64,000 nucleotides of DNA, taken from assembly GCA_000002445.1 (NCBI GenBank), contig CM000207.1, positions 1,600,001 to 1,664,000 of the forward strand, given 5' to 3'. Shown here piece after piece: positions 14,160-35,985 of this stretch. A model generated the notes under the pieces. It worked only from the letters and a program-made list of their open reading frames with translations, was not told the origin of the DNA and searched no databases. Position numbers and translations under genes: made by a program. Source of the DNA: Trypanosoma brucei (Eukaryota). Within the stretch, counting starts at the first letter, position 1. Each line of letters opens with the position of its first letter.

Positions 14160-17100
14160 ATAACAAATAATAGCCGTGGTAATATACCAAACTATAATAA
14201 TAATTATTATTATATATAGATGGATATATATAGATACAGATACAGATATATGCTACTGATATATTCGCTATGAACTTTCTTGTAACTAACCGCGTAGGGG
14301 CGCCGGATTCTTCTCTTTTTTTTTTCCTTTTCACCTTCCCCCCCTACCTTTTTTAGTCAAAAGTGCGAGGGTGATAATCACCTAACATTTAAAGGTGTCG
14401 CAACCATAGGGAGGAACAGAGAAAAAAAAGGCACAAAGACATTAATATATGAATAAATATATGTGAGGAGAACGTAGACAGGAGCAGAGGAAAAAGAAAA
14501 TAATCGCGAATAGTGAAGCAATCGAGATACCGTTACGGGGAAGTGTAAACGCATCGCCGTAAAAAGTCTACATTTTATCGTTTCTTTTCAAAAATTTTCT
14601 TCACCCTTCGTATTTGTGGGCGCGTGTGTGAGAAATTAGTTTCTTGTGTATCTCTCTCTCTCTCTCTCTGTGTGTTTGTTTGTTTGTTTGTTTTATTGCT
14701 ATTATTACTTTTTCCCCTTCCTTTTGTCTTCGCGCCCTTTAATCGGTATCCCATTCAGAGGGGGGTTTTCCTCTACGTGAAAGTTTAAAAATCCAAATGT
14801 GAAGCGGTAGCGGCGAAAGTTATGGTAACACCATTACCGAAATGACAAACAAGAAAAATACAAATAAAATCAAGTAATAGACGATAGTAAGTGGTCAAGG
14901 TTTTTTCTTTTCATTTTCAAAGAAAAAAAAGAAAAAAAGAAACTAAAAGAACGAAAGAGTAAACACACTAGATGCTTTTAATCGACTCCTTCGGGGGTAT
15001 TGAAAAATAATAAAACACCGCTCGAGAGGATGGGAAGGGGAGGTATAAAAAGAAGCAACTCATCACACTCGAATTTTTTACTTTTATCCGTTTTCATACA
15101 AATGCATGGACATATATATATATATATATACGCAACAAGACAAAACAAGCACAACGTATCGTATCGTATACCGTCGTATCGCCTCCATTTTTCTTTTTTT
15201 TCCCCTGCTTCTGCTGCTGCTACTGTTTTTGTTGTCTGTCTGTTTTATTTGTTTTATTTTGCTTCTACTCTCGTAGCCTTCGATTCCACTCGCCTTCCGT
15301 TACCTTCTGCCAAATGTACGAAAAGAAAAAAAGGAAAAGAAACGTTTTACAACAATCCTTCTCACGAGGCAAATTCACACGTATCATTTCCCCCCTCTCT
15401 AACCACTTCTCCTTTTGTTTATATATCTATTTATTTATTACCACGCCTTTTTCCACCTTATGTCCTCCGAGTTTCCCTTCACCGTATACATATATATATA
15501 TATATATATATATTCCCAATAGTTTCTTTGATCCCACACTCTTTTTTTCTTTTCCTTATCCTTTTTTTTCTCTAACAATGGAAAAGAATTATCATCGCAG
15601 CCACCAGGTAGCGACGAAAAAAAAAACAAACAAAGAAACAAAAGAAGAAAATAACAACAACACCAAAAGTGTCCAGAAAATAAAGGGGAGGGGAGGAAAG
15701 AAAAAAAAGAATGAGTAAAAATATTTAAAATATTTAATGTCATCCGTAAGAACATGCCATAAGGAAGGTTTGGAAAAAAAAAATGAGATATTCGGGATGA
15801 TGAAGTAACCGGCACCGCTTAAGGAGGTAAAGAGGTAACAAAAGATTGAGAGAAGTGAAAAAAAAATGAGGATGAAAATGTAACGAAAAGGGGAAAGAAC
15901 AAGAAGGAGAGGAAAGGGGAGAAAAAAAGAGAGAGAGAGTAGAAAACAAAACAAACAAACAAACAATAATAATTATTATTATTATTATATTAATTAAGTA
16001 CACCCATGCACAGGAGGGAAGGGAAAGGGAAAATATGATGGGGTAAAGCCGCTGTATTCCACTCCTTATAGTTTTAAAACTTATGTACATTCACAAAAGC
16101 ACGCATTCGTGTGGTACAATAAGTCAAGTTTGGAGCGAATAGGAAAGGTGGGCAGAGAAGATGTAACGAACAACGAAGATAAATGGAAGGGGAATTTTTT
16201 AAGTGAAGGAAGAAAAGAGGGAGAAAACAATTCATGCGCACTGCTCGTTTCTCCATTTACTTTTTTTGTTGCTGTTGTTTATTAATTAATTTCTCTTTTA
16301 TTACTTCTTTCCGTTTAACGGAAGAAATATAAATATATACACAAGAATCCCCCCTTTCACATTACTAACTGGAAAAATAATTACTTGAGCAAGTAGTATT
16401 AGTAAACACACACCTTTCTAATTTTTCAACAAAAAGCGCAGAAATAAGATATAATACCGATGGTAATTTAATTGATCATAGAGCTTACTTCGCTTAATGA
16501 CGCACCGACCTTCACAAACATACACTCATGTATGAAAGTTTACGTTTGTTTTCACACAAAAATGTAACTGAGAAAACAAACAAAATTCGAAACCGTACAT
16601 AAATTGTTACTCACTGCAAGAGCCGAAAGACGACCACTCCCAAATATAAACAAACATAAGCGTAAGCGCAAACGGACAATAAAAACGAGTACATATACAT
16701 ATATACATATATATATATATGATCTGTATGCATAATGATAATAATAGTAACAGTGACTTTTATACAGTAGCTACGCACGGACTCAGTTGCCGTTGCAGCG
16801 CGTCTAACTGTACATTCAATATATAAAAAAGGTAAAAAAATATTTAAAGATAGAAAAATGGCATGTCGTTGATAAGTATTGGGGAACGCCTTAAATCTAA
16901 AGTACGCAAAAGGGCCACGAATCCCTGACCGGGTACACACGCACAACCAAAGAGAACTACAAGAAAAAAAACATTGTTGACTTACGATGTTCGAGTCTGT
17001 ATTCACAGAGCCGTTGCGTACCTGTTATTTAAAAACGTTGTTGCGACATTGTTTGCTTGCTTCTTTTTTTGTTTTTTTTGTTATTGTTTTCGCCATCGTT

Positions 17101-19754: not shown

Positions 19755-22022
19755 TCATTTCAGCAAAGGGTAGTTTGTGTAACTGACACCATCCTTCAGG
19801 ATTCTAGAAATTGTTAAAGCAATATACGACATCCAAAAAATCACAAAGAACAAAATCTCACCACGCATCCAATACCGTGGCACAAACAGCATCGAGAAAC
19901 TCACAAGGGTCGCTAGCACTGCAGCTGCCATACCACCAAGTACCATTCTGTTGAGCCCTGAAAAGTTACGGGAAAATGGACTCTCAAATTGAGTGTGGAA
20001 AAGAGCAGGATCATGCTGACACGTGAGTAGAGAAACGGCATCCTGTTTCTGTCCATCAAAGAAATTTTGTTGCCACCAGCGGCGCAGTGCGATTCGCACC
20101 ACATCAAACGTGGCCGGTCCCCATTCCCCAGTTAGTAGAAAGTCCACAAAATGGGGGTCGCTTCCAGCGTACAACCTGGAAAGTGAAATTCCCAGTTCAA
20201 CCCACATATGCTTACATCTCTCTACGCTGCAATGAAACTCACCATTCCCTCGCGCTCCGTCACTTCCATCATCCTCATCTTCATACTCATCCTCATCGTC
20301 ACTGAGGTTCATTTCTTCCCCATGCCCAAGTACATACCTAATCATCTGAGGAAGAATGTTAATAGCAATCATGGACTGAACAAGGTTTGTCCGATCCAAG
20401 CAATCCAAACAGTTCACCCGAACGTAATGTTTCTGCTGGTGGACAAGAACCAACTCGCAAGTCGCCCCGTCAGCATCAGCGGTGCTGGGAACAGATGGAG
20501 GCGATGACCCACTCGATGGAGACGGATGTCCTTCATTGCTAAACTTCCAAAAATCTACGAACTGCGATCCACCTTCGTTTTTCCTATTTAGCAGAGTATC
20601 AACTTCCATTCGCATTAAGTTGTAAGGCGCATTTTTAGCCCTCCGTTCCTTTACGTTGTATTTTGTATAATAAACGTCAACGGGCCTTGAGAGAGCGCCA
20701 TTCCCTTCACGAAGTTTTAATGCCGCTGCTTCGAACGCCTTTGAAATTGGCAACTCGGCTTTGCTAAGCGACGTGGTGTCAAGACAATGGATAGATGTCA
20801 TCCCATCGAATAAAGCCAAAAGGGCATTTAAATGCAAGACCAGTTCATCAACCCCTGACGATGGCGAAGATATGGTAATCGTGGGGATGAATGTTAAATT
20901 CGCTGGCTGACTCCAGCAACGAGGCACAGAACCACGAAGAATGGTAAAGGCTGCCACGCGCTGCTTTTCATTAGCGGCCTTATCCCCCTCGTTTCCCGAC
21001 GCTAAAGGAAAGACCCAAAGCGTTGATGCAGAAAAGTTCGCTGCAATCCCACTACCAGCATTGTCAAGCCCACGCCGATTGTATCGCGTACCCGCCCACC
21101 GGTAACTAAGGCGATTGATGAGCAACATCTGAACACCCTCCTCGGGGGAAGTAGTCGCCTCCACAATACCCCTAATAAACGCAGGAACGTACACGTGGTA
21201 ATCACAATTCAGCGAAGCTACAACCTCATCAAACGCACCAAGCAGAGGCGAATTCCACTGGAAAACCACCCGCTGCGATATTTGTCCCTCGGAAGAAATC
21301 GCTAAAGAAAAGGCGCCACCACCCTTCACGCTGCTGCCATTCAACGACGGCGTGAGTACCTCCTTCATACCCTTCACAACATCACCAGGTTCCAGGGTTA
21401 AGTTCGCAGTCGGTGAATAGTAAAAATAAGAAGCACCGCAATGTTGCTCCGACTGCGCACAAAAGCTATCGACAACCCTACAATACTCTAAAACCATTTC
21501 TTCCCTGGCATGGCTTTGTGAAGAACCCTGCGAAGCGCTTGCTTCATCTTTCTCGCCTGAACCACCATCACCACCGTCCCCACTCTTATTCACGGACAGG
21601 TCAGACGCTGTTTCCGGTAGTCGAAGCCACGACAGCTGCTTTACCGCAAACACGTCGTGGGTCTCCCCAATAGTTAATGTGGTAATACGTTCCCGTTCAG
21701 AAACATACAAAAGTATCGACGCAGAGCCAATGCGAAGAACACCAAATAAAGCATAACAGGGAATACAACGGACCGGTGTAAACTCTTCAAATCCAGAGGA
21801 GGAAGCATCGGACATAACTCCATCATCAACCACATCACAAACCGCCTTTTCAGAATCTTTGCTAACATGAGAAACGGCATCATCCGCAGCCACATTACTC
21901 GGCAACACGAAACATTGACGCTCCAAATTCCAAATAAGTCTGGGATAAGAATCATCATTAGGGACAAAAGAGGCAGATTCACCATCAATAACGATATTTC
22001 CAAAAAAATCCCCTACAGACAT
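19755..22022 (-). CDS. SAC1: Sac1-type phosphoinositide phosphatase (SAC domain) with C-terminal transmembrane anchor
   Basis: Catalytic CX5R(T/S) motif in VRVNCLDCLDRTNLVQS. Upstream block RLSYRWAGTRYNRRGLDNAGSGIAANF is characteristic of the SAC domain. Two hydrophobic helices lie at the C-terminus (MVLGGMAAAVLATLVSFSMLFV, ILFFVIFWMSYIALTI). Confidence 0.8.
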   Translation of the reverse strand: MSVGDFFGNIVIDGESASFVPNDDSYPRLIWNLERQCFVLPSNVAADDAVSHVSKDSEKAVCDVVDDGVMSDASSSGFEEFTPVRCIPCYALFGVLRIGSASILLYVSERERITTLTIGETHDVFAVKQLSWLRLPETASDLSVNKSGDGGDGGSGEKDEASASQGSSQSHAREEMVLEYCRVVDSFCAQSEQHCGASYFYYSPTANLTLEPGDVVKGMKEVLTPSLNGSSVKGGGAFSLAISSEGQISQRVVFQWNSPLLGAFDEVVASLNCDYHVYVPAFIRGIVEATTSPEEGVQMLLINRLSYRWAGTRYNRRGLDNAGSGIAANFSASTLWVFPLASGNEGDKAANEKQRVAAFTILRGSVPRCWSQPANLTFIPTITISSPSSGVDELVLHLNALLALFDGMTSIHCLDTTSLSKAELPISKAFEAAALKLREGNGALSRPVDVYYTKYNVKERRAKNAPYNLMRMEVDTLLNRKNEGGSQFVDFWKFSNEGHPSPSSGSSPPSVPSTADADGATCELVLVHQQKHYVRVNCLDCLDRTNLVQSMIAINILPQMIRYVLGHGEEMNLSDDEDEYEDEDDGSDGARGNGEFHCSVERCKHMWVELGISLSRLYAGSDPHFVDFLLTGEWGPATFDVVRIALRRWWQQNFFDGQKQDAVSLLTCQHDPALFHTQFESPFSRNFSGLNRMVLGGMAAAVLATLVSFSMLFVPRYWMRGEILFFVIFWMSYIALTISRILKDGVSYTNYPLLK

Positions 22023-22320: not shown

Positions 22321-24584
22321 AACACCCAAACACTTACTCAGAAGTCAAACAGACAAAATTAACTGATGTCAGCATCAAATAAATTCAGCTGAAACACGGA
22401 TTTGACAGACTCATCATTGACACAAAACAAGGTAAGAGCAACACCACCAAACAGTTCAGAGCAGGAATAAGAAGGAGGGCGGCATGTACATATGTGTGTG
22501 GGGTAATGTTGGTGTAATGGGGAAAAGGTGAGAAAGTTACCGTACGCCTCGGACGCAGGACGCACGCGGCTGGAATGTTGTGCGGCGCCCCAGAAACTAT
22601 CGTAACACTCGTGCTCAATCCATGTTCGGGTGTGTGTCATAAGACCGTCGTAAGTGGTTTATCGTCATGGGCAAAGTACAAGGTGTATCCGCAGTGACCA
22701 AAGAGACAATGCAGAATCTGGCAAAGAGAAAGGGCGAAAGCCAAGCAATAAGGGTGGTTTCAAATGTAAAACAAGGAAAAAGGGAGGGGAGGGGGGTGAC
22801 AGTAACCACACACATGGTATGATAACGTGCCACGACGAAACCAAACACCATCAGCCGGGGAAAGAAGAATATTCTTTAAATGGGTTATTGTCATTCAAAT
22901 ACACTCAGAGACTCCAGTCCATTGATGTCATCAAGTAGCGCGTTTACGACAGGTTAGGTGTACCGCAAAGCAACTCTCGGAGCGCACCAAGATGGCCTAC
23001 GGCATGCAATCACAAAACGGCCGCTCCATGGCTAAAGCCCCTTTTTCATTTTTGTTGTCCATAAAAACACTGAAGGGAGAAAACAGAGGAAGGAGAAGGT
23101 AACAATATCAAACAAGAGAAGAGTGTGCACTAACCAATAACCTCCGTTATAATTCTCGGACCACGTGAGTGTGCAAACAAGGACACAGAAATGTTAGCCC
23201 AAGACACAACTCCAATGTGGGCCTTCCCCTACGGTTACTGCCCCAACACATAATTGTAATTATAATAATAACCATAATCATAATTATACACCTGACGTCA
23301 AGTGAAAAAAACTCGGCGCGTCAGAAACAATATTAGCGTCACGGGTTCTGTTCAGATGTTGCTGTTAATTTGTTATATTAGGTATTCATCACACGCACCT
23401 ACTCGCCGAACTGCTAACCCCACACGTCAGCTCGGAGCGAAAGATAGAGTTCACAGTTGCATCGACATAGTGTGTTTCCGTTCCGCCTACGCGGTATCGG
23501 AAGCTCTTTCATCAGTGGCGGGGAACGACGGATGGGGGATAAACACTTAACAGAGGGGAAAATGTGCATGAAATAGGTAATACAATAAGAGAAGGGGGAA
23601 GTAAACAGGGAATCACGGAAGTAAGGTTCAGTGCAGGTCTGTGTTATGGTGTCCTCACAGGTTCTCGGTGCAATTTGAACATATTGTACATCGTCACCTA
23701 CTACATTCCCTCTCGACTACCCCGCCACTCACAACATTATACTGCCGCCCACATTAGCCATTCCAAACTCACTGCGGTAATGTATCCTCGTGTGTGCTTG
23801 CGTGTATATGTGTATATATGTGTATGTGTATGGAGTCGCGCCCAAGTGCCCGAGGTTGAGTACCTGAAGGACACGATAGCCATCAGACCCGAAAGGTGAT
23901 TTGTGTTGTATAGATCCCTCATGAATATGACGTCGGAACATGTTTGGACGCTCAACTAGTTTCCATCATCGGCCACACACATACACAAACATACAAGCAC
24001 ACACACACACACACACACTCACATATATATATATATATATACATACACGACAAACCTCCGCACACCCAAACACTTACTCAGAAGTCAAACAGACAAAATT
24101 AACTGATGTCAGCATCAAATAAATTCAGCTGAAACACGGATTTGACAGACTCATCATTGACACAAAACAAGGTAAGAGCAACACCACCAAACAGTTCAGA
24201 GCAGGAATAAGAAGGAGGGCGGCATGTACATATGTGTGTGGGGTAATGTTGGTGTAATGGGGAAAAGGTGAGAAAGTTACCGTACGCCTCGGACGCAGGA
24301 CGCACGCGGCTGGAATGTTGTGCGGCGCCCCAGAAACTATCGTAACACTCGTGCTCAATCCATGTTCGGGTGTGTGTCATAAGACCGTCGTAAGTGGTTT
24401 ATCGTCATGGGCAAAGTACAAGGTGTATCCGCAGTGACCAAAGAGACAATGCAGAATCTGGCAAAGAGAAAGGGCGAAAGCCAAGCAATAAGGGTGGTTT
24501 CAAATGTAAAACAAGGAAAAAGGGAGGGGAGGGGGGTGACAGTAACCACACACATGGTATGATAACGTGCCACGACGAAACCAA

Positions 24585-24680
24585 ACACCATCAGCCGGGG
24601 AAAGAAGAATATTCTTTAAATGGGTTATTGTCATTCAAATACACTCAGAGACTCCAGTCCATTGATGTCATCAAGTAGCG
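24585..24680 (-). ncRNA. Weaker box C/D snoRNA-like element 'B' (representative, unit 2). Same position in all 8 copies, at unit offset ~522-617.
   Basis: Minus-strand reading: UUGAUGA-(19 nt)-CUGA-(10 nt)-AUGA-(35 nt)-CUGA. C, D', degenerate C' and D in canonical order, ~82 nt C-to-D. No clear terminal stem. Confidence 0.3.
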
Positions 24681-25054
24681 CGTTTACGACAGGTTAGGTG
24701 TACCGCAAAGCAACTCTCGGAGCGCACCAAGATGGCCTACGGCATGCAATCACAAAACGGCCGCTCCATGGCTAAAGCCCCTTTTTCATTTTTGTTGTCC
24801 ATAAAAACACTGAAGGGAGAAAACAGAGGAAGGAGAAGGTAACAATATCAAACAAGAGAAGAGTGTGCACTAACCAATAACCTCCGTTATAATTCTCGGA
24901 CCACGTGAGTGTGCAAACAAGGACACAGAAATGTTAGCCCAAGACACAACTCCAATGTGGGCCTTCCCCTACGGTTACTGCCCCAACACATAATTGTAAT
25001 TATAATAATAACCATAATCATAATTATACACCTGACGTCAAGTGAAAAAAACTC

Positions 25055-25139
25055 GGCGCGTCAGAAACAATATTAGCGTCACGGGTTCTGTTCAGATGTT
25101 GCTGTTAATTTGTTATATTAGGTATTCATCACACGCACC
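25055..25139 (-). ncRNA. Box C/D snoRNA-like element 'D', representative copy in unit 2. The same element is present in units 1-7 at 23315-23399, 25055-25139, 26807-26891, 28553-28637, 30293-30377, 32033-32117, 33771-33855.
   Basis: Minus-strand reading: 5'-GGUGCG-U-GUGAUGA-(30 nt)-CUGA-(27 nt)-CUGA-CGCGCC-3'. Canonical C box (RUGAUGA), D' and D boxes (CUGA). The 6-bp terminal stem GGUGCG/CGCGCC (one G.U) flanks the C and D boxes directly. Size ~85 nt. Not verified against rRNA targets. Confidence 0.5.
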
Positions 25140-25157
25140 TACTCGCCGAACTGCTAA

Positions 25158-25263
25158 CCCCACACGTCAGCTCGGAGCGAAAGATAGAGTTCACAGTTGC
25201 ATCGACATAGTGTGTTTCCGTTCCGCCTACGCGGTATCGGAAGCTCTTTCATCAGTGGCGGGG
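25158..25263 (-). ncRNA. Box C/D snoRNA-like element 'C', representative copy in unit 2. The same element is present in units 1-7 at 23418-23523, 25158-25263, 26910-27015, 28656-28761, 30396-30501, 32136-32241, 33874-33979.
   Basis: Minus-strand reading: 5'-CCCCGC-CAC-UGAUGA-(~85 nt)-CUGA-CGU-GUGGGG-3'. C box UGAUGA and D box CUGA are bracketed by a 6-bp terminal stem CCCCGC/GUGGGG (one G.U). Lies immediately upstream (in the minus sense) of element D. Confidence 0.45.
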
Positions 25264-28200
25264 AACGACGGATGGGGGATAAACACTTAACAGAGGGGAA
25301 AATGTGCATGGAATAGGTAATACAATAAGAGAAGGGGGAAGTAAACAGGGAATCACGGAAGTAAGGTTCAGTGCAGGTCTGTGTTATGGTGTCCTCACAG
25401 GTTCTCGGTGCAATTTGAACATATTGTACATCGTCACCCACTACATTCCCTCTCGACTACCCCGCCACTCACAACATTATACTGCCGCCCACATTAGCCA
25501 TTCCAAACTCACTGCGGTAATGTATCCTCGTGTGTGCTTGCGTGTATATGTGTATATATGTGTATATATGTGTATGTGTATGGAGTCGCGCCCAAGTGCC
25601 CGAGGTTGAGTACCTGAAGGACACGATAGCCATCAGACCCGAAAGGTGATTTGTGTTGTATAGATCCCTCATGAATATGACGTCGGAACATGTTTGGACG
25701 CTCAACTAGTTTCCATCATCGGCCACACACATACACAAACATACAAGCACACACACATACACACACTCACATATATATATATATATATATATACATACAC
25801 GACAAACCTCCGCACACCCAAACACTTACTCAGAAGTCAAACAGACAAAATTAACTGATGTCAGCATCAAATAAATTCAGCTGAAACACGGATTTGACAG
25901 ACTCATCATTGACACAAAACAAGGTAAGAGCAACACCACCAAACAGTTCAGAGCAGGAATAAGAAGGAGGGCGGCATGTACATATGTGTGTGGGGTAATC
26001 TTGGTGTAATGGGGAAAAGGTGAGAAAGTTACCGTACGCCTCGGACGCAGGACGCACGCGGCTGGAATGTTGTGCGGCGCCCCAGAAACTATCGTAACAC
26101 TCGTGCTCAATCCATGTTCGGGTGTGTGTCATAAGACCGTCGTAAGTGGTTTATCGTCATGGGCAAAGTACAAGGTGTATCCGCAGTGACCAAAGAGACA
26201 ATGCAGAATCTGGCAAAGAGAAAGGGCGAAAGCCAAGCAATAAGGGTGGTTTCAAATGTAAAACAAGGAAAAAGGGAGGGGAGGGGGGTGACAGTAACCA
26301 CACACATGGTATGATAACGTGCCACGACGAAACCAAACACCATCAGCCGGGGAAAGAAGAATATTCTTTAAATGGGTTATTGTCATTCAAATACACTCAG
26401 AGACTCCAGTCCATTGATGTCATCAAGTAGCGCGTTTACGACAGGTTAGGTGTACCGCAAAGCAACTCTCGGAGCGCACCAAGATGGCCTACGGCATGCA
26501 ATCACAAAACGGCCGCTCCATGGCTAAAGCCCCTTTTTCATTTTTGTTGTCCATAAAAACACTGAAGGGAGAAAACAGAGGAAGGAGAAGGTAACAATAT
26601 CAAACAAGAGAAGAGTGTGCACTAACCAATAACCTCCGTTATAATTCTCGGACCACGTGAGTGTGCAAACAAGGACACAGAAATGTTAGCCCAAGACACA
26701 ACTCCAATGTGGGCCTTCCCCTACGGTTACTGCCCCAACACATAATTGTAATTATAATAATAACCATAATCATAATTATACACCTGACGTCAAGTGAAAA
26801 AAACTCGGCGCGTCAGAAACAATATTAGCGTCACGGGTTCTGTTCAGATGTTGCTGTTAATTTGTTATATTAGGTATTCATCACACGCACCTACTCGCCG
26901 AACTGCTAACCCCACACGTCAGCTCGGAGCGAAAGATAGAGTTCACAGTTGCATCGACATAGTGTGTTTCCGTTCCGCCTACGCGGTATCGGAAGCTCTT
27001 TCATCAGTGGCGGGGAACGACGGATGGGGGATAAACACTTAACAGAGGGGAAAATGTGCATGGAATAGGTAATACAATAAGAAAAGGGGGAAGTAAACAG
27101 GGAATCACGGAAGTAAGGTTCAGTGCAGGTCTGTGTTATGGTGTCCTCACAGGTTCTCGGTGCAATTTGAACATATTGTACATCGTCACCCACTACATTC
27201 CCTCTCGACTACCCCGCCACTCACAACATTATACTGCCGCCCACATTAGCCATTCCAAACTCACTGCGGTAATGTATCCTCGTGTGTGCTTGCGTGTATA
27301 TGTGTATATATGTGTATGTGTATGGAGTCGCGCCCAAGTGCCCGAGGTTGAGTACCTGAAGGACACGATAGCCATCAGACCCGAAAGGTGATTTGTGTTG
27401 TATAGATCCCTCATGAATATGACGTCGGAACATGTTTGGACGCTCAACTAGTTTCCATCATCGGCCACACACATACACAAACATACAAGCACACACACAC
27501 ACACACACACTCACATATATATATATATATATACATATATATACACGACAAACCTCCGCACACCCAAACACTTACTCAGAAGTCAAACAGACAAAATTAA
27601 CTGATGTCAGCATCAAATAAATTCAGCTGAAACACGGATTTGACAGACTCATCATTGACACAAAACAAGGTAAGAGCAACACCACCAAACAGTTCAGAGC
27701 AGGAATAAGAAGGAGGGCGGCATGTACATATGTGTGTGGGGTAATCTTGGTGTAATGGGGAAAAGGTGAGAAAGTTACCGTACGCCTCGGACGCAGGACG
27801 CACGCGGCTGGAATGTTGTGCGGCGCCCCAGAAACTATCGTAACACTCGTGCTCAATCCATGTTCGGGTGTGTGTCATAAGACCGTCGTAAGTGGTTTAT
27901 CGTCATGGGCAAAGTACAAGGTGTATCCGCAGTGACCAAAGAGACAATGCAGAATCTGGCAAAGAGAAAGGGCGAAAGCCAAGCAATAAGGGTGGTTTCA
28001 AATGTAAAACAAGGAAAAAGGGAGGGGAGGGGGGTGACAGTAACCACACACATGGTATGATAACGTGCCACGACGAAACCAAACACCATCAGCCGGGGAA
28101 AGAAGAATATTCTTTAAATGGGTTATTGTCATTCAAATACACTCAGAGACTCCAGTCCATTGATGTCATCAAGTAGCGCGTTTACGACAGGTTAGGTGTA

Positions 28201-31200
28201 CCGCAAAGCAACTCTCGGAGCGCACCAAGATGGCCTACGGCATGCAATCACAAAACGGCCGCTCCATGGCTAAAGCCCCTTTTTCATTTTTGTTGTCCAT
28301 AAAAACACTGAAGGGAGAAAACAGAGGAAGGAGAAGGTAACAATATCAAACAAGAGAAGAGTGTGCACTAACCAATAACCTCCGTTATAATTCTCGGACC
28401 ACGTGAGTGTGCAAACAAGGACACAGAAATGTTAGCCCAAGACACAACTCCGATGTGGGCCTTCCCCTACGGTTACTGCCCCAACACATAATTGTAATTA
28501 TAATAATAACCATAATCATAATTATACACCTGACGTCAAGTGAAAAAAACTCGGCGCGTCAGAAACAATATTAGCGTCACGGGTTCTGTTCAGATGTTGC
28601 TGTTAATTTGTTATATTAGGTATTCATCACACGCACCTACTCGCCGAACTGCTAACCCCACACGTCAGCTCGGAGCGAAAGATAGAGTTCACAGTTGCAT
28701 CGACATAGTGTGTTTCCGTTCCGCCTACGCGGTATCGGAAGCTCTTTCATCAGTGGCGGGGAACGACGGATGGGGGATAAACACTTAACAGAGGGGAAAA
28801 TGTGCATGGAATAGGTAATACAATAAGAGAAGGGGGAAGTAAACAGGGAATCACGGAAGTAAGGTTCAGTGCAGGTCTGTGTTATGGTGTCCTCACAGGT
28901 TCTCGGTGCAATTTGAACATATTGTACATCGTCACCCACTACATTCCCTCTCGACTACCCCGCCACTCACAACATTATACTGCCGCCCACATTAGCCATT
29001 CCAAACTCACTGCGGTAATGTATCCTCGTGTGTGCTTGCGTGTATATGTGTATATATGTGTATGTGTATGGAGTCGCGCCCAAGTGCCCGAGGTTGAGTA
29101 CCTGAAGGACACGATAGCCATCAGACCCGAAAGGTGATTTGTGTTGTATAGATCCCTCATGAATATGACGTCGGAACATGTTTGGACGCTCAACTAGTTT
29201 CCATCATCGGCCACACACATACACAAACATACAAGCACACACACACACACACACACTCACATATATATATATATATATACATACACGACAAACCTCCGCA
29301 CACCCAAACACTTACTCAGAAGTCAAACAGACAAAATTAACTGATGTCAGCATCAAATAAATTCAGCTGAAACACGGATTTGACAGACTCATCATTGACA
29401 CAAAACAAGGTAAGAGCAACACCACCAAACAGTTCAGAGCAGGAATAAGAAGGAGGGCGGCATGTACATATGTGTGTGGGGTAATCTTGGTGTAATGGGG
29501 AAAAGGTGAGAAAGTTACCGTACGCCTCGGACGCAGGACGCACGCGGCTGGAATGTTGTGCGGCGCCCCAGAAACTATCGTAACACTCGTGCTCAATCCA
29601 TGTTCGGGTGTGTGTCATAAGACCGTCGTAAGTGGTTTATCGTCATGGGCAAAGTACAAGGTGTATCCGCAGTGACCAAAGAGACAATGCAGAATCTGGC
29701 AAAGAGAAAGGGCGAAAGCCAAGCAATAAGGGTGGTTTCAAATGTAAAACAAGGAAAAAGGGAGGGGAGGGGGGTGACAGTAACCACACACATGGTATGA
29801 TAACGTGCCACGACGAAACCAAACACCATCAGCCGGGGAAAGAAGAATATTCTTTAAATGGGTTATTGTCATTCAAATACACTCAGAGACTCCAGTCCAT
29901 TGATGTCATCAAGTAGCGCGTTTACGACAGGTTAGGTGTACCGCAAAGCAACTCTCGGAGCGCACCAAGATGGCCTACGGCATGCAATCACAAAACGGCC
30001 GCTCCATGGCTAAAGCCCCTTTTTCATTTTTGTTGTCCATAAAAACACTGAAGGGAGAAAACAGAGGAAGGAGAAGGTAACAATATCAAACAAGAGAAGA
30101 GTGTGCACTAACCAATAACCTCCGTTATAATTCTCGGACCACGTGAGTGTGCAAACAAGGACACAGAAATGTTAGCCCAAGACACAACTCCAATGTGGGC
30201 CTTCCCCTACGGTTACTGCCCCAACACATAATTGTAATTATAATAATAACCATAATCATAATTATACACCTGACGTCAAGTGAAAAAAACTCGGCGCGTC
30301 AGAAACAATATTAGCGTCACGGGTTCTGTTCAGATGTTGCTGTTAATTTGTTATATTAGGTATTCATCACACGCACCTACTCGCCGAACTGCTAACCCCA
30401 CACGTCAGCTCGGAGCGAAAGATAGAGTTCACAGTTGCATCGACATAGTGTGTTTCCGTTCCGCCTACGCGGTATCGGAAGCTCTTTCATCAGTGGCGGG
30501 GAACGATGGATGGGGGATAAACACTTAACAGAGGGGAAAATGTGCATGGAATAGGTAATACAATAAGAGAAGGGGGAAGTAAACAGGGAATCACGGAAGT
30601 AAGGTTCAGTGCAGGTCTGTGTTATGGTGTCCTCACAGGTTCTCGGTGCAATTTGAACATATTGTACATCGTCACCCACTACATTCCCTCTCGACTACCC
30701 CGCCACTCACAACATTATACTGCCGCCCACATTAGCCATTCCAAACTCACTGCGGTAATGTATCCTCGTGTGTGCTTGCGTGTATATGTGTATATATGTG
30801 TATGTGTATGGAGTCGCGCCCAAGTGCCCGAGGTTGAGTACCTGAAGGACACGATAGCCATCAGACCCGAAAGGTGATTTGTGTTGTATAGATCCCTCAT
30901 GAATATGACGTCGGAACATGTTTGGACGCTCAACTAGTTTCCATCATCGGCCACACACATACACAAACATACAAGCACACACACACACACACACTCACAT
31001 ATATATATATATATATATACATACACGACAAACCTCCGCACACCCAAACACTTACTCAGAAGTCAAACAGACAAAATTAACTGATGTCAGCATCAAATAA
31101 ATTCAGCTGAAACACGGATTTGACAGACTCATCATTGACACAAAACAAGGTAAGAGCAACACCACCAAACAGTTCAGAGCAGGAATAAGAAGGAGGGCGG

Positions 31201-34200
31201 CATGTACATATGTGTGTGGGGTAATGTTGGTGTAATGGGGAAAAGGTGAGAAAGTTACCGTACGCCTCGGACGCAGGACGCACGCGGCTGGAATGTTGTG
31301 CGGCGCCCCAGAAACTATCGTAACACTCGTGCTCAATCCATGTTCGGGTGTGTGTCATAAGACCGTCGTAAGTGGTTTATCGTCATGGGCAAAGTACAAG
31401 GTGTATCCGCAGTGACCAAAGAGACAATGCAGAATCTGGCAAAGAGAAAGGGCGAAAGCCAAGCAATAAGGGTGGTTTCAAATGTAAAACAAGGAAAAAG
31501 GGAGGGGAGGGGGGTGACAGTAACCACACACATGGTATGATAACGTGCCACGACGAAACCAAACACCATCAGCCGGGGAAAGAAGAATATTCTTTAAATG
31601 GGTTATTGTCATTCAAATACACTCAGAGACTCCAGTCCATTGATGTCATCAAGTAGCGCGTTTACGACAGGTTAGGTGTACCGCAAAGCAACTCTCGGAG
31701 CGCACCAAGATGGCCTACGGCATGCAATCACAAAACGGCCGCTCCATGGCTAAAGCCCCTTTTTCATTTTTGTTGTCCATAAAAACACTGAAGGGAGAAA
31801 ACAGAGGAAGGAGAAGGTAACAATATCAAACAAGAGAAGAGTGTGCACAAACCAATAACCTCCGTTATAATTCTCGGACCACGTGAGTGTGCAAACAAGG
31901 ACACAGAAATGTTAGCCCAAGACACAACTCCAATGTGGGCCTTCCCCTACGGTTACTGCCCCAACACATAATTGTAATTATAATAATAACCATAATCATA
32001 ATTATACACCTGACGTCAAGTGAAAAAAACTCGGCGCGTCAGAAACAATATTAGCGTCACGGGTTCTGTTCAGATGTTGCTGTTAATTTGTTATATTAGG
32101 TATTCATCACACGCACCTACTCGCCGAACTGCTAACCCCACACGTCAGCTCGGAGCGAAAGATAGAGTTCACAGTTGCATCGACATAGTGTGTTTCCGTT
32201 CCGCCTACGCGGTATCGGAAGCTCTTTCATCAGTGGCGGGGAACGACGGATGGGGGATAAACACTTAACAGAGGGGAAAATGTGCATGGAATAGGTAATA
32301 CAATAAGAGAAGGGGGAAGTAAACAGGGAATCACGGAAGTAAGGTTCAGTGCAGGTCTGTGTTATGGTGTCCTCACAGGTTCTCGGTGCAATTTGAACAT
32401 ATTGTACATCGTCACCCACTACATTCCCTCTCGACTACCCCGCCACTCACAACATTATACTGCCGCCCACATTAGCCATTCCAAACTCACTGCGGTAATG
32501 TATCCTCGTGTGTGCTTGCGTGTATATGTGTATATATGTGTATGTGTATGGAGTCGCGCCCAAGTGCCCGAGGTTGAGTACCTGAAGGACACGATAGCCA
32601 TCAGACCCGAAAGGTGATTTGTGTTGTATAGATCCCTCATGAATATGACGTCGGAACATGTTTGGACGCTCAACTAGTTTCCATCATCGGCCACACACAT
32701 ACACAAACATACAAGCACACACACATACACACACTCACATATATATATATATATATACATACACGACAAACCTCCGCACACCCAAACACTTACTCAGAAG
32801 TCAAACAGACAAAATTAACTGATGTCAGCATCAAATAAATTCAGCTGAAACACGGATTTGACAGACTCATCATTGACACAAAACAAGGTAAGAGCAACAC
32901 CACCAAACAGTTCAGAGCAGGAATAAGAAGGAGGGCGGCATGTACATATGTGTGTGGGGTAATGTTGGTGTAATGGGGAAAAGGTGAGAAAGTTACCGTA
33001 CGCCTCGGACGCAGGACGCACGCGGCTGGAATGTTGTGCGGCGCCCCAGAAACTATCGTAACACTCGTGCTCAATCCATGTTCGGGTGTGTGTCATAAGA
33101 CCGTCGTAAGTGGTTTATCGTCATGGGCAAAGTACAAGGTGTATCCGCAGTGACCAAAGAGACAATGCAGAATCTGGCAAAGAGAAAGGGCGAAAGCCAA
33201 GCAATAAGGGTGGTTTCAAATGTAAAACAAGGAAAAAGGGAGGGGAGGGGGGTGACAGTAACCACACACATGGTATGATAACGTGCCACGACGAAACCAA
33301 ACACCATCAGCCGGGGAAAGAAGAATATTCTTTAAATGGGTTATTGTCATTCAAATACACTCAGAGACTCCAGTCCATTGATGTCATCAAGTAGCGCGTT
33401 TACGACAGGTTAGGTGTACCGCAAAGCAACTCTCGGAGCGCACCAAGATGGCCTACGGCATGCAATCACAAAACGGCCGCTCCATGGCTAAAGCCCCTTT
33501 TTCATTTTTGTTGTCCATAAAAACACTGAAGGGAGAAAACAGAGGAAGGAGAAGGTAACAATATCAAACAAGAGAAGAGTGTGCACTAACCAATAACCTC
33601 CGTTATAATTCTCGGACCACGTGAGTGTGCAAACAAGGACACAGAAATGTTAGCCCAAGACACAACTCCAATGTGGGCCTTCCCCTACGGTTACTGCCCC
33701 AACACATAATTGTAATTATAATAATAACCATAATCATAATTATACACCTGACGTCAAGTGAAAAAAACTCGGCGCGTCAGAAACAATATTAGCGTCACGG
33801 GTTCTGTTCAGATGTTGCTGTTAATTTGTTATATTAGGTATTCATCACACGCACCTACTCGCCGAACTGCTAACCCCACACGTCAGCTCGGAGCGAAAGA
33901 TAGAGTTCACAGTTGCATCGACATAGTGTGTTTCCGTTCCGCCTACGCGGTATCGGAAGCTCTTTCATCAGTGGCGGGGAACGACGGATGGGGGATAAAC
34001 ACTTAACAGAGGGGAAAATGTGCATGAAATAGGTAATACAATAAGAGAAGGGGGAAGTAAACAGGGAATCACGGAAGTAAGGTTCAGTGCAGGTCTGTGT
34101 TATGGTGTCCTCACAGGTTCTCGGTGCAATTTGAACATATTGTACATCGTCACCCACTACATTCCCTCTCGACTACCCCGCCACTCACAACATTATACTG

Positions 34201-35985
34201 CCGCCCACATTAGCCATTCCAAACTCACTGCGGTAATGTATCCTCGTGTGTGCTTGCGTGTATATGTGTATATATGTGTATGTGTATGGAGTCGCGCCCA
34301 AGTGCCCGAGGTTGAGTACCTGAAGGACACGATAGCCATCAGACCCGAAAGGTGATTTGTGTTGTATAGATCCCTCATGAATATGACGTCGGAACATGTT
34401 TGGACGCTCAACTAGTTTCCATCATCGGCCACACACATACACAAACATACAAGCACACACACACACACACACACTCACATATATATATATATATATACAT
34501 ACACGACAAACCTCCGCACACCCAAACACTTACTCAGAAGTCAAACAGACAAAATTAACTGATGTCAGCATCAAATAAATTCAGCTGAAACACGGATTTG
34601 ACAGACTCATCATTGACACAAAACAAGGTAAGAGCAACACCACCAAACAGTTCAGAGCAGGAATAAGAAGGAGGGCGGCATGTACATATGTGTGTGGGGT
34701 AATGTTGGTGTAATGGGGAAAAGGTGAGAAAGTTACCGTACGCCTCGGACGCAGGACGCACGCGGCTGGAATGTTGTGCGGCGCCCCAGAAACTATCGTA
34801 ACACTCGTGCTCAATCCATGTTCGGGTGTGTGTCATAAGACCGTCGTAAGTGGTTTATCGTCATGGGCAAAGTACAAGGTGTATCCGCAGTGACCAAAGA
34901 GACAATGCAGAATCTGGCAAAGAGAAAGGGCGAAAGCCAAGCAATAAGGGTGGTTTCAAATGTAAAACAAGGAAAAAGGGAGGGGGGGTGACAGCAACCA
35001 CACACATGGTATGATAACGTGCCACGACGAAACCAAACACCATCAGCCGGGGAAAGAAGAATATTCTTTAAATGGGTTATTGTCATTCAAATACACTCAG
35101 AGACTCCAGTCCATTGATGTCATCAAGTAGCGCGTTTACGACAGGTTAGGTGTACCGCAAAGCAACTCTCGGAGCGCACCAAGATGGCCTACGGCATGCA
35201 ATCACAAAACGGCCGCTCCATGGCTAAAGCCCCTTTTTCATTTTTGTTGTCCATAAAAACACTGAAGGGAGAAAACAGAGGAAGGAGAAGGTAACAATAT
35301 CAAACAAGAGAAGAGTGTGCACTAACCAATAACCTCCGTTATAATTCTCGGACCACGTGAGTGTGCAAACAAGGACACAGAAATGTTAGCCCAAGACACA
35401 ACTCCAATGTGTCGCATTTTTTTTCGTAATATAGTTTTTGAAAGTTTATTCAAATTTTTTGGAAGAAGGCTGAGTTGTTGCAGGTTCTTTACCTATGATA
35501 GGTCATATTGCTGATTATATTTTTTGTTCAATTGTTTTTTGTGTATAGAATGATTTCTCCTTTTTTATTTTTTTTCACCAAGTGGCTTGATAATTTTGGT
35601 GGAACCAACTGTTTTTTTTTTTTTCGCATGATATATTGTTAATAAGTTGAAACTCAAAAGTAAATGAGTAGGGTAACCATTATTTTGTGATAACTGCACG
35701 TAGCTTCGCTATAGTTGAAGCATCGATGTGCCCTTTTTCATTACTTTTTTTTTTACGTTTCTTGCATTGTTTAGCAATTGAGTATCGATTTTGTGTCCGC
35801 TTCCGATATTACTTTGGCAGGGTCAGTGATGTGGTTTAACAAAAAGGAAAAAATCAGCTGAATGGTGTTGTTTACTTGTTTGATGCCATTACCACTTGTT
35901 TTTTATTTTCGCTGTTGCATCATATCGCAGCTGTTCTCGCTGCCGTTTGATTATCACTCTCTTGATGTAGTTGGTAGTAACGTTT

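What the first reader, a model, noticed from the sequence alone, without database searches (positions are those of the whole stretch)
25055..25263. Two adjacent canonical box C/D snoRNA-like genes per repeat unit, on the transcription-unit strand
Read on the minus strand, each unit contains the two elements below, immediately after one another.
- Element C: CCCCGC-CAC-UGAUGA ... CUGA-CGU-GUGGGG.
- Element D: GGUGCG-U-GUGAUGA-(30 nt)-CUGA-(27 nt)-CUGA-CGCGCC.
Both have RUGAUGA C boxes, CUGA D (and D') boxes, and 6-bp terminal stems that directly bracket the boxes. This is the defining architecture of C/D snoRNAs. Their sense orientation matches the surrounding polycistron, as expected for snoRNAs processed from polycistronic precursors. 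Seven copies of each exist (23315-23399/23418-23523, 26807-26891/26910-27015, 28553-28637/28656-28761, 30293-30377/30396-30501, 32033-32117/32136-32241, 33771-33855/33874-33979, plus the unit-2 copy given here). Candidate guide regions are the 10-20 nt 5' of each D/D' box, e.g. GACGCUAAUAUUGUUU before the D box of element D.
Basis: seen in the sequence. Interest (0 to 1): 0.8.

Follow-up and report, generated by a model that had tools for sequence, protein, structure and literature searches.

The report
Known trypanosome C/D snoRNAs TB9Cs2C5 and TB9Cs2C6
The two elements are real box C/D small nucleolar RNA genes that guide ribose methylation of ribosomal RNA, but they are the already published Trypanosoma brucei snoRNAs TB9Cs2C5 and (almost certainly) TB9Cs2C6, so the finding is correct and ordinary.

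Summary
Both elements are at the stated coordinates, on the minus strand, in seven identical copies inside a ~1.74-kb tandem repeat at window 22322-35415. That repeat is the T. brucei chromosome-9 snoRNA cluster TB9Cs2: Rfam finds TB9Cs2H1 eight times.

Element C is TB9Cs2C5. Published probe primers for that RNA match it exactly. Its D-box guide has 13 nt of perfect complementarity to kinetoplastid LSU rRNA, and position 5 falls on LSU-alpha G1024, the published Gm site. Published work also gives it a role in srRNA1 and 3'ETS processing.

Element D is, by gene order and target, TB9Cs2C6. Its D' guide pairs over 12 nt with SSU rRNA, with position 5 on a U that fits the published Um714. That guide, the D' box and the C' box are invariant in nine orthologous or paralogous copies from Trypanosoma, Leishmania and Leptomonas.

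- The guide it named (GACGCUAAUAUUGUUU, before the D box of element D) overlaps the conserved C' box, is not conserved, and has no rRNA match.
- Element C has no canonical D' box, and its C box reads CUGAUGA.
- By my scans each unit holds about seven C/D snoRNAs and at least one H/ACA snoRNA, not two genes.

Novelty: already known. Interest is low.

The parts
22322..35415 (-). Tandem array of the TB9Cs2 snoRNA cluster: seven full units of ~1.74 kb plus one partial unit, transcribed on the minus strand
   Evidence: Repeat families with spacings of 1738-1752 bp. Unit-versus-window blastn. Eight Rfam RF01554 TB9Cs2H1 hits above the gathering score.
25158..25263 (-). Element C with its precursor terminal stem = the TB9Cs2C5 gene (unit-2 copy). 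The published mature RNA starts at 25259 and extends at least to 25164 (about 96-97 nt).
   Evidence: Published primers match exactly: 'Sense TB9Cs2C5 (1-20 nt)' GCCACTGATGAAAGAGCTTC at 25240-25259, and the antisense probe primer at 25164-25183.
25249..25255 (-). C box of element C (cUGAUGA)
   Evidence: Read from the sequence. Motif scan. UGAUGA is conserved in the T. cruzi and T. vivax orthologues.
25216..25242 (-). Internal stem-loop of element C (UUCCG-AUA-CCGC-GUAG-GCGG-AA-CGGAA), in the position of the D'/C' motif
   Evidence: RNAfold of the inner segment in three species gives a hairpin each time, with different stem sequences: CCGC/GCGG in T. brucei and CGCC/GGCG in T. cruzi and T. vivax.
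25172..25184 (-). Antisense (guide) element of element C: 13 nt at positions 2-14 upstream of the D box, complementary to LSU rRNA AUCGGAGCGAAAGAC. Position 5 pairs with LSU-alpha G1024.
   Evidence: Perfect 13-nt anchored match in seven kinetoplastid rDNA loci. Nine of 20000 shuffled guides do as well. Colinear counting from the published primer LSUa 980-999 gives position 1024. The neighbouring A1020 also fits. Gm1024 falls on silencing (PMC6411936).
25167..25170 (-). D box (CUGA) of element C
   Evidence: Invariant in the orthologues.
25055..25139 (-). Element D with its terminal stem (GGUGCG / CGCGCC) = the TB9Cs2C6 gene (unit-2 copy). The name is inferred from gene order and target.
   Evidence: It follows C2, C3, C4 and C5 in order on the minus strand. 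Its target base and register fit the published SSU_714 U assigned to TB9Cs2C6.
25126..25132 (-). C box of element D (GUGAUGA)
   Evidence: GAUGA is kept in eight of nine orthologues or paralogues.
25097..25108 (-). D' guide of element D: 12 nt at positions 2-13 upstream of D', complementary to SSU rRNA UGUUGCUGUUAA. Position 5 pairs with a U (published Um714).
   Evidence: UUAACAGCAACAU is invariant in nine sequences from Trypanosoma, Leptomonas and Leishmania.
25092..25095 (-). D' box (CUGA) of element D
   Evidence: Invariant in alignment A1.
25076..25082 (-). C' box of element D (GUGACGC).
   Evidence: TGACG is invariant in all nine aligned sequences.
25065..25075 (-). 11 nt (UAAUAUUGUUU) between C' and D of element D: a nominal D guide with no target found
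   Evidence: No anchored run of at least 8 nt in a full rDNA unit and no better than shuffles. The best runs elsewhere are 6-9 nt, at unannotated positions of the contigs. Not conserved between T. brucei, T. cruzi and T. vivax.
25061..25064 (-). D box (CUGA) of element D
   Evidence: Conserved in the Trypanosoma orthologues.
23418..23523 (-). Element C (TB9Cs2C5), copy in unit 1
   Evidence: 100% identical.
26910..27015 (-). Element C (TB9Cs2C5), copy in unit 3
   Evidence: 100% identical.
28656..28761 (-). Element C (TB9Cs2C5), copy in unit 4
   Evidence: 100% identical.
30396..30501 (-). Element C (TB9Cs2C5), copy in unit 5
   Evidence: 100% identical.
32136..32241 (-). Element C (TB9Cs2C5), copy in unit 6
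   Evidence: 100% identical.
33874..33979 (-). Element C (TB9Cs2C5), copy in unit 7
   Evidence: 100% identical.
23315..23399 (-). Element D (TB9Cs2C6), copy in unit 1
   Evidence: 100% identical.
26807..26891 (-). Element D (TB9Cs2C6), copy in unit 3
   Evidence: 100% identical.
28553..28637 (-). Element D (TB9Cs2C6), copy in unit 4
   Evidence: 100% identical.
30293..30377 (-). Element D (TB9Cs2C6), copy in unit 5
   Evidence: 100% identical.
32033..32117 (-). Element D (TB9Cs2C6), copy in unit 6
   Evidence: 100% identical.
33771..33855 (-). Element D (TB9Cs2C6), copy in unit 7
   Evidence: 100% identical.

Best explanation
The window comes from the Trypanosoma brucei group. It carries the chromosome-9 snoRNA cluster TB9Cs2, a ~1.74-kb unit repeated in tandem and co-oriented with the surrounding RNA polymerase II polycistron.

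**What the elements are.** Element C is the gene for the abundant box C/D snoRNA TB9Cs2C5, the trypanosome counterpart of yeast snR60 and human U80. Element D is the next gene in the unit, TB9Cs2C6.

**How they are made (inferred from established knowledge).** Each RNA is cut out of the polycistronic precursor. The flanking 5-6-bp stem brings the C and D boxes together into a kink-turn. That kink-turn nucleates the SNU13/NOP56/NOP58/fibrillarin (NOP1) particle and protects the RNA from exonucleases.

**How they act.**
- In TB9Cs2C5, the 13 nt upstream of the D box pair with LSU-alpha rRNA (AUCGGAGCGAAAGAC). The nucleotide opposite guide position 5, G1024, is 2'-O-methylated. The pairing is shown here by complementarity; the methylation dependence is shown in the literature by silencing.
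- According to the literature, the same RNA also contacts srRNA1, ITS3 and the 3'ETS, and is needed for release of srRNA1.
- In TB9Cs2C6, the 12 nt upstream of the D' box pair with SSU rRNA (UGUUGCUGUUAA) and direct methylation of U714. The pairing is shown here. The site-to-snoRNA assignment comes from the literature. Equating element D with the name C6 is my inference.
- The D-box-proximal 11 nt of TB9Cs2C6 are probably not a working rRNA guide.
For: **Cluster identity**
- Eight Rfam TB9Cs2H1 hits at 70-87 bits against a gathering score of 45. One copy lies directly after each element D.
- The flanking BBS1 protein is 99% identical to that of T. b. gambiense.

**Element C = TB9Cs2C5**
- Published primers 'Sense TB9Cs2C5 (1-20 nt)' and 'Antisense T7 TB9Cs2C5' match 25240-25259 and 25164-25183 exactly.

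**Guide of element C**
- 13-nt anchored perfect complementarity in seven kinetoplastid rDNA loci.
- Nine of 20000 shuffled guides reach 13 nt.
- Position 5 is G at T. brucei LSU-alpha 1024, counted from the 100%-matching published primer LSUa 980-999. The neighbouring published A1020 also fits.
- Gm1024 is reduced on TB9Cs2C5 silencing (PMC6411936).
- The snR60/U80 homology is stated in PMC3542256 and PMC6562600.

**Element D**
- A scan of the whole unit, both strands, against a complete kinetoplastid rDNA gave eight anchored guide hits of at least 10 nt. All are on the minus strand and all lie directly 5' of a CUGA.
- Their target bases and spacings reproduce the published sites of TB9Cs2C7 (G, then U 26 nt later), C2 (A, then C 17 nt later), C3 (G), C4 (SSU G), C5 (G) and C6 (SSU U).
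- The register U680/U714/A721 fits.

**Conservation**
- Syntenic arrays between BBS1 and the synaptojanin gene in T. cruzi and T. vivax carry orthologues of both elements. A third Trypanosoma assembly holds the array end next to the synaptojanin gene.
- The D' guide, D' box and C' box of element D are invariant in nine sequences, including Leishmania and Leptomonas.
- The 3' guide of element C is invariant over 24 nt, apart from one variable column, in the four species aligned.
- Terminal stems persist with different sequences.

**Expression**
- TB9Cs2C5 and C6 are at the 76th-97th percentile of small-RNP RNA-seq.
Against: - No published sequence of TB9Cs2C6 could be read. Liang 2005 and Rajan 2020 are not held, and sequence-string searches found nothing. 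The name of element D therefore rests on order and target.
- T. brucei rRNA itself was not available. Targets were tested on rDNA of free-living kinetoplastids from metagenomes.
- Those loci were selected with a pattern that contained the 12-nt SSU target. The SSU match in them is therefore not an independent statistical test, although the existence of that sequence at that place in SSU is a real result.
- The covariation count on the element D terminal stem is weak with four species: 87.5% paired, one compensatory pair, 117 of 500 shuffles as high.
- No Rfam C/D family reaches its threshold. The best hit is SNORD96 at 22.7 bits against 43.
- The published numbering differs between papers (G1024, G1028, 'LSU5 Gm1192').
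Confidence: 0.93

Rival explanations
1. Element D is a true double guide. Besides D'/Um714, the 11-16 nt before its D box direct a second methylation, on a T. brucei-specific rRNA segment, a spacer, or a non-ribosomal RNA such as an snRNA, SL RNA or tRNA.
For: - The spacing is that of a canonical two-guide C/D snoRNA.
- One Leptomonas paralogue has a related stretch, CGCUAAUGUUAUU, before its D box.
- Only conserved rDNA of distant kinetoplastids could be searched, so species-specific targets were not testable.
Against: - GUGACGC within that stretch is the invariant C' box, which leaves only 11 A/U-rich nt.
- Those 11 nt differ completely in T. cruzi, T. vivax and the third Trypanosoma.
- None of eight orthologous D guides has a conserved-rRNA match of more than 10 nt.
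- The published Nm table assigns only SSU_714 to TB9Cs2C6.
- The Leptomonas similarity is shifted by one register relative to the D box.
Confidence: 0.1
2. Element D is a real C/D snoRNA of the cluster but carries another published name (for example TB9Cs2C1 or C7) rather than TB9Cs2C6.
For: - No sequence of C6 was accessible.
- The serial numbers in the published table (C1, then H2, C2 ... C6) do not simply follow my map of the unit.
Against: - The published targets of C1 (LSU-beta C1413) and C7 (LSU-beta G659/U685) do not fit element D. The C7 targets fit the element at 26343-26426 instead.
- The only SSU U site assigned to this cluster is U714/C6.
- C2, C3, C4 and C5 map in consecutive order immediately upstream.
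Confidence: 0.04
3. The box motifs and stems are chance features of a repeated intergenic spacer and do not give functional RNAs.
For: The seven copies are identical because the unit is duplicated, so copy number adds no evidence. No Rfam C/D model reaches its threshold.
Against: - Exact identity to published probe primers for an RNA detected by northern blot and RNA-seq.
- Anchored rRNA complementarity far beyond shuffles.
- Conservation of boxes and guides from Trypanosoma to Leishmania.
- The motif is absent from the rest of the window.
Confidence: 0.01

Closest known systems
TB9Cs2C5 (T. brucei box C/D snoRNA; Liang et al. 2005; Chikne et al. 2019, PMC6411936)
   Same: Element C is this RNA. 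Its first 20 nt and nt ~77-96 are identical to the published primers. It has the same target, Gm1024 of LSU-alpha. It sits in the same cluster next to TB9Cs2H1.
   Different: Nothing differs in sequence. My analysis adds that the Gm1024 guide is the D-box guide, and that a conserved internal hairpin replaces canonical D'/C' boxes.
TB9Cs2C6 (T. brucei box C/D snoRNA; guide for SSU Um714 in PMC9283944 Table)
   Same: Element D follows C5 in the unit. Its D' guide places a U of the conserved SSU sequence UGUUGCUGUUAA at position 5, in register with the published U680, U714 and A721.
   Different: The published sequence could not be read, so identity is inferred rather than shown base by base.
Yeast snR60 / human SNORD80 (U80)
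   Same: They guide methylation of the homologous LSU guanosine (yeast 25S G908, human 28S G1612), according to PMC3542256 and PMC6562600. They are box C/D RNPs that follow the +5 rule.
   Different: There is no detectable sequence or Rfam-model similarity outside the boxes and guide. The trypanosome RNA is encoded in a tandemly repeated polycistronic cluster. It is reported to have an extra role in trypanosome-specific srRNA1 and 3'ETS processing.
Leishmania and Leptomonas snoRNAs with the same D' guide (L128 15815-15931 and ~16705-16822; L129 15397-15493 and 15789-15886)
   Same: Same D' guide UUAACAGCAACAU-CUGA, same C' box UGACG, same syntenic interval downstream of BBS1 and upstream of the TB9Cs2H1-type array.
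   Different: There are two paralogues per genome, with longer and different D guides. They lie outside the H1 repeat unit rather than inside it.

Membership tests
Box C/D snoRNA (2'-O-methylation guide) | C box RUGAUGA near the 5' end and D box CUGA near the 3' end | tested here: met
   Element D has GUGAUGA and CUGA. Element C has cUGAUGA (core perfect, R position = C) and CUGA. The boxes are kept in the orthologues.
Box C/D snoRNA (2'-O-methylation guide) | A terminal stem that juxtaposes the C and D boxes | tested here: met
   Both elements have 6-bp stems, each with one G.U pair. Flank duplexes of -5 to -14 kcal/mol are present in the nine orthologue or paralogue sequences scored correctly, with different sequences. 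The formal covariation count is weak with four species.
Box C/D snoRNA (2'-O-methylation guide) | An antisense element of at least 10 nt directly 5' of D or D', with the modified nucleotide opposite position 5 | tested here: met
   Element C D guide: 13 nt, position 5 = LSU-alpha G1024. Element D D' guide: 12 nt, position 5 = SSU U. Both sites are published Nm sites. The D guide of element D does not meet this feature.
Box C/D snoRNA (2'-O-methylation guide) | Internal D' and C' boxes | tested here: inconclusive
   Element D meets it: D' CUGA and C' GUGACGC, both invariant. Element C does not: it has only degenerate xxGA and a conserved internal hairpin. Degenerate D'/C' boxes are common in this family (my own knowledge).
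Box C/D snoRNA (2'-O-methylation guide) | A stable small RNA bound by fibrillarin/NOP56/NOP58/SNU13 | not testable with these tools
   From the literature only. TB9Cs2C5 and C6 are abundant in small-RNP RNA-seq. Northern probes and sucrose-gradient co-sedimentation are reported for C5.
TB9Cs2 cluster of T. brucei | Tandem repeat containing TB9Cs2H1 and the C/D genes C1-C7 | tested here: met
   RF01554 hits eight times. Primers for C3 and C5 map in the unit. Guides for the published C7, C2, C3, C4, C5 and C6 sites are found in order.
TB9Cs2C5 | Sequence identity to the published RNA | tested here: met
   The two published 20-nt primers that span nt 1-20 and ~77-96 match exactly in all seven copies.
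TB9Cs2C6 | Sequence identity to the published RNA | not testable with these tools
   The papers that hold the sequence are not in the library and string searches gave nothing. The assignment rests on gene order and on the U714 target.
Rfam C/D families (SNORD96, snoR38, snoZ266) | Score at or above the family's gathering threshold | tested here: not met
   Element D scores 22.7, 22.7 and 18.9 bits against thresholds of 43-45. Element C has no hit at E <= 10.

The most novel reading that the evidence does not exclude
The short, fast-evolving stretch between the C' and D boxes of TB9Cs2C6 (UAAUAUUGUUU in T. brucei) might be a lineage-specific guide for a non-ribosomal or spacer target. That would make this snoRNA a case of guide turnover on a fixed scaffold. 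Separately, the published TB9Cs2C5 snoRNAi construct spans C4, C5 and C6 (25045-25524). Part of the rRNA-processing phenotype ascribed to C5 could therefore come from co-silencing its neighbours.
Probability: 0.08. Interest if true: 0.3.

Novelty: already known. Interest (0 to 1): 0.08.

Why it matters
It matters little as a discovery. These snoRNAs were catalogued in 2005, quantified by RNA-seq in 2012, and TB9Cs2C5 was functionally dissected in 2019.

The result is useful as calibration. A reader working from raw sequence alone correctly recognised two C/D snoRNA genes, their strand, their copy number and the organism type.

The re-analysis adds three small points:
- It shows which guide of each RNA is the working one.
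- It shows that the D' guide and C' box of TB9Cs2C6 are invariant across trypanosomatids, whereas its D guide is not.
- It shows that the published silencing construct for TB9Cs2C5 covers three adjacent snoRNAs.

Tried and rejected
- **Rfam at gathering thresholds.** Only TB9Cs2H1 was found; there is no C/D family.
- **Rfam at E <= 10.** Only sub-threshold generic C/D hits on element D (SNORD96, snoR38, snoZ266) and none on element C. The mir-297 and mir-4012 hits fall on (TA)n/(TG)n microsatellites and are spurious.
- **Source papers for the sequences.** Liang 2005 (PMC1370750) and Rajan 2020 (PMC7549662) are not held. PMC3273796 has no supplements held. The PMC9283944 supplements do not mention the names.
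- **Full-text searches.** Searches for the element sequences and for Um714 gave nothing useful.
- **D-box guide of element D.** This guide, and the D guides of seven orthologues or paralogues, were searched against six complete or near-complete kinetoplastid rDNA contigs. No conserved anchored match was found, only isolated 9-10-nt matches that are not shared between species.
- **Other syntenic contigs.** Contigs from three further assemblies were truncated before the array, or showed no guide or H1 seed match (L122, L123, L125). T. theileri (L127) has no cluster in the 10 kb downstream of BBS1.
- **Technical failures.** A first fuzzy-regex search for diverged copies timed out and was replaced by blastn. 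One multi-locus Rfam call failed.
- **Covariation statistics.** The test on the terminal stem of element D with four species is not significant.
Full report
**1. The observation**

- Element C (25158-25263) is CCCCGC-CAC-UGAUGA ... CUGA-CGU-GUGGGG.
- Element D (25055-25139) is GGUGCG-U-GUGAUGA-30 nt-CUGA-27 nt-CUGA-CGCGCC.
- The copies lie in a tandem array of units of 1738-1752 bp: seven full units and one partial unit, at 22322-35415.

A strict motif scan asked for NUGAUGA, a CUGA 55-125 nt downstream, and a terminal stem of at least 5 bp within 3 nt of the boxes.
- It hits only the minus strand and only the array, with three distinct elements per unit.
- It hits nothing in the remaining 50 kb.
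- Block-shuffled sequence gives 0.68 hits per 100 kb.

So the anatomy is real and not a chance pattern. The seven copies reflect repeat structure and are not independent support.

Details to correct: element C's C box is CUGAUGA, and element C has no canonical internal D' box.

**2. Where the window comes from**

- Rfam finds the H/ACA family RF01554, 'Trypanosomatid snoRNA TB9Cs2H1', eight times on the minus strand at 70-87 bits (gathering score 45). One copy begins about 90 nt downstream of each element D.
- The genes flanking the array are both on the minus strand: a synaptojanin N-terminal-domain protein (19755-22022) and BBS1 (38060-39889).
- The BBS1 product is 99% identical to that of T. 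brucei gambiense.
- Eighteen of the 22 ORFs of at least 150 aa are on the minus strand.

The array is therefore the T. brucei chromosome-9 snoRNA cluster 'TB9Cs2', embedded in sense orientation in a polycistron. This is the general arrangement of trypanosomatid snoRNA genes (review PMC6562600).

**3. Identity of element C**

Supplementary Table S1 of Chikne et al. 2019 (PMC6411936) lists two primers:
- 'Sense TB9Cs2C5 (1-20 nt)' GCCACTGATGAAAGAGCTTC
- 'Antisense T7 TB9Cs2C5' ...ACGTCAGCTCGGAGCGAAAG, which is also the 76-96 nt affinity oligonucleotide.

Both match element C exactly in all seven copies, at 25240-25259 and 25164-25183 in unit 2. Element C is TB9Cs2C5. The mature RNA starts at 25259 and runs to at least 25164.

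What the literature reports about this RNA:
- It is among the most abundant snoRNAs, at the 97th percentile.
- It guides Gm1024 on LSU-alpha, and that modification drops on silencing.
- It cross-links to srRNA1, ITS3 and the 3'ETS.
- It is needed for LSU precursor processing and srRNA1 release.
- It is regarded as the counterpart of yeast snR60 and human U80.

**4. An independent guide test**

T. brucei rRNA was not available in the tools. I therefore scanned the metagenome collection for eukaryotic SSU genes that carry the complement of element D's D' guide at the expected place (GGTAATTCCAGCTCC, then 5-35 nt, then TGTTGCTGTTAA).
Many carry the context ...TGTTGCTGTTAAAGGGTTCGTAGTTGAA, which I recognise from memory, not from a tool result, as typical of kinetoplastids.
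- One locus, L032, holds a complete rDNA unit with SSU, 5.8S and LSU.

For element C:
- The 22 nt before the D box contain a perfect 13-nt complement (guide positions 2-14) to AUCGGAGCGAAAGAC in the LSU of seven such contigs.
- Only 9 of 20000 shuffled guides reach 13 nt in one rDNA unit.
- The published primer 'LSUa 980-999' matches L032 at 20 of 20 positions. Counting from it puts the nucleotide opposite guide position 5 at 1024, and it is a G.
- The A four nucleotides upstream fits the published neighbouring Am1020.

This test is independent of the pattern used to fetch the loci.

**5. Element D**

The 22 nt before its D' box give a 12-nt perfect complement (positions 2-13) to SSU UGUUGCUGUUAA, with a U opposite position 5.
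- The loci were selected for that 12-mer, so the shuffle figure (41 of 20000) is not an independent statistic here.
- What is independent is the published Nm table (PMC9283944). It assigns SSU_714 (U) to TB9Cs2C6 and lists U680 and A721 nearby.
- In the kinetoplastid SSU, the bases 34 nt upstream and 7 nt downstream of the predicted U are U and A.

I then scanned the whole repeat unit: both strands, every NTGA, with the 22 nt upstream tested against L032 rDNA.
- It returns eight anchored guide hits of at least 10 nt. All are on the minus strand and directly 5' of a CUGA. One 10-nt A/T-rich hit falls on the plus strand.
- Their target bases and spacings reproduce the published sites: C7 (G, then U 26 nt later), C2 (A, then C 17 nt later), C3 (G), C4 (SSU G), C5 (G) and C6 (SSU U).
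- They lie in that order along the unit.
- The C3 and C5 primers anchor the numbering.

Element D, the gene after C5, is therefore TB9Cs2C6. I could not read a published C6 sequence, so this name is inferred. I put it at about 0.9.

**6. Comparative evidence**

Syntenic loci were fetched through the two flanking proteins.
- The T. cruzi and T. vivax intervals between BBS1 and synaptojanin hold tandem arrays (units of about 1.54 and 1.58 kb) with TB9Cs2H1 and orthologues of both elements. A third Trypanosoma assembly holds the last unit.
- L. donovani and Leptomonas pyrrhocoris each carry two snoRNAs with the same D' guide in the same interval.
- In a nine-sequence alignment of element D, 17 consecutive columns are invariant: UUAACAGCAACAU plus CUGA. 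The C' core UGACG is also invariant. The segment between C' and D varies freely.
- For element C, the 24 nt before the D box are invariant, apart from one variable column, in the four species aligned. An internal hairpin is kept with swapped base pairs: CCGC/GCGG in T. brucei and CGCC/GGCG in T. cruzi and T. vivax.
- Terminal flank duplexes exist in the nine sequences scored correctly, with different sequences.
- A formal count on four Trypanosoma sequences shows 87.5% pairing and one compensatory pair, but it is not statistically distinguishable from shuffles.

**7.

GACGCUAAUAUUGUUU, before the D box of element D, overlaps the invariant C' box (GUGACGC).
- The remaining 11 nt are A/U-rich and differ entirely in T. 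cruzi, T. vivax and the third Trypanosoma.
- Neither they nor the D guides of the orthologues and paralogues have a conserved rRNA complement.
- The published table lists only one site for C6.

I conclude that the D' guide is the working guide and that the D guide is probably vestigial. A T. brucei-specific or non-rRNA target cannot be excluded with these tools.

**8. Mechanism**

Shown here:
- boxes, terminal stems, anchored guides that obey the +5 rule, and conservation;
- identity of element C with a characterised RNA.

From the literature:
- abundance, dependence of Gm1024 on the snoRNA, and rRNA-processing roles.

Inferred from established knowledge of box C/D RNPs:
- kink-turn formation by the C/D boxes, assembly with SNU13, NOP56, NOP58 and fibrillarin, exonucleolytic trimming from the polycistronic precursor, and methyl transfer to the nucleotide paired with guide position 5.

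**9. Verdict**

The finding is correct in observation and interpretation, but it describes two already published snoRNAs. Novelty: already known. Interest is low.

Noticed in passing
window 25045-25524 (and the same span in the other units): The published snoRNAi construct for TB9Cs2C5 (sense primer at 25505-25524, antisense primer at 25045-25064) spans three adjacent snoRNA genes by my map: C4, C5 and C6. The silencing phenotype ascribed to C5 might therefore include co-depletion of its neighbours.
   Followed up: partly
window 25364-25383 and 25707-25726: The published northern primers for TB9Cs2C3 map 340 nt apart. The sense primer sits at the C box of the 25630-25726 snoRNA. The antisense primer sits at the D-box end of the next snoRNA, the SSU-G guide that I take to be C4. 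The probe would cover two snoRNAs, or the C3/C4 naming differs from my map.
   Followed up: partly
window 26343-26426, ~25830-25915, ~25630-25726, ~25355-25440 (minus strand; repeated in each unit): There are four further C/D snoRNAs per unit whose guides match kinetoplastid rRNA. Their bases and spacings fit the published TB9Cs2C7 (LSU-beta G659/U685), C2 (LSU-alpha A743/C760), C3 (LSU-alpha G925) and C4 (SSU G1895).
   Followed up: partly
window ~26075-26160 and ~26455-26520 (minus strand): There is a C/D-like element with AUGACGA near its 5' end, possibly TB9Cs2C1. Between H1 and C7 there is a hairpin-rich stretch ending in AGA, possibly TB9Cs2H2. Both were seen by eye only. Neither has an Rfam hit or an rDNA guide match.
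   Followed up: no
window 35346-35415: The first TB9Cs2H1 copy, at the upstream end of the array, scores 70.5 bits against 86.8 for the others. Its 5' end differs (GCGACACAUUGG instead of GGCCCACAUUGG), which would weaken the basal stem.
   Followed up: no
window 25520-25800 and the equivalent part of each unit: (TA)n, (CA)n and (TATG)n microsatellites between the snoRNA genes appear to account for the unit-length differences (1738-1752 bp; inferred, not tested). They also produce spurious sub-threshold mir-297, mir-4012 and mir-3149 hits.
   Followed up: yes
L121 1399-2328; L127 16691-17821: In T. cruzi an Oxidored_FMN (old-yellow-enzyme-like) gene lies between snoRNA-bearing segments of the array. 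In T. theileri the interval downstream of BBS1 holds Oxidored_FMN and other genes, with no H1 or guide matches within 10 kb.
   Followed up: no
L128 15815-15931 and ~16705-16822; L129 15397-15493 and 15789-15886: Leishmania donovani and Leptomonas pyrrhocoris each have two paralogous C/D snoRNAs that share the U714-type D' guide but carry different D guides. They lie just upstream of their TB9Cs2H1-type tandem arrays. One Leptomonas D guide (CGCUAAUGUUAUU) resembles the T. brucei stretch CGCUAAUAUUGUUU.
   Followed up: partly
window 25216-25242: TB9Cs2C5 has a conserved internal stem-loop flanked by GA-containing bulges, where D'/C' boxes would be. The stem base pairs are swapped between T. 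brucei and T. cruzi/T. vivax. It might be a K-loop-like C'/D' substitute.
   Followed up: partly
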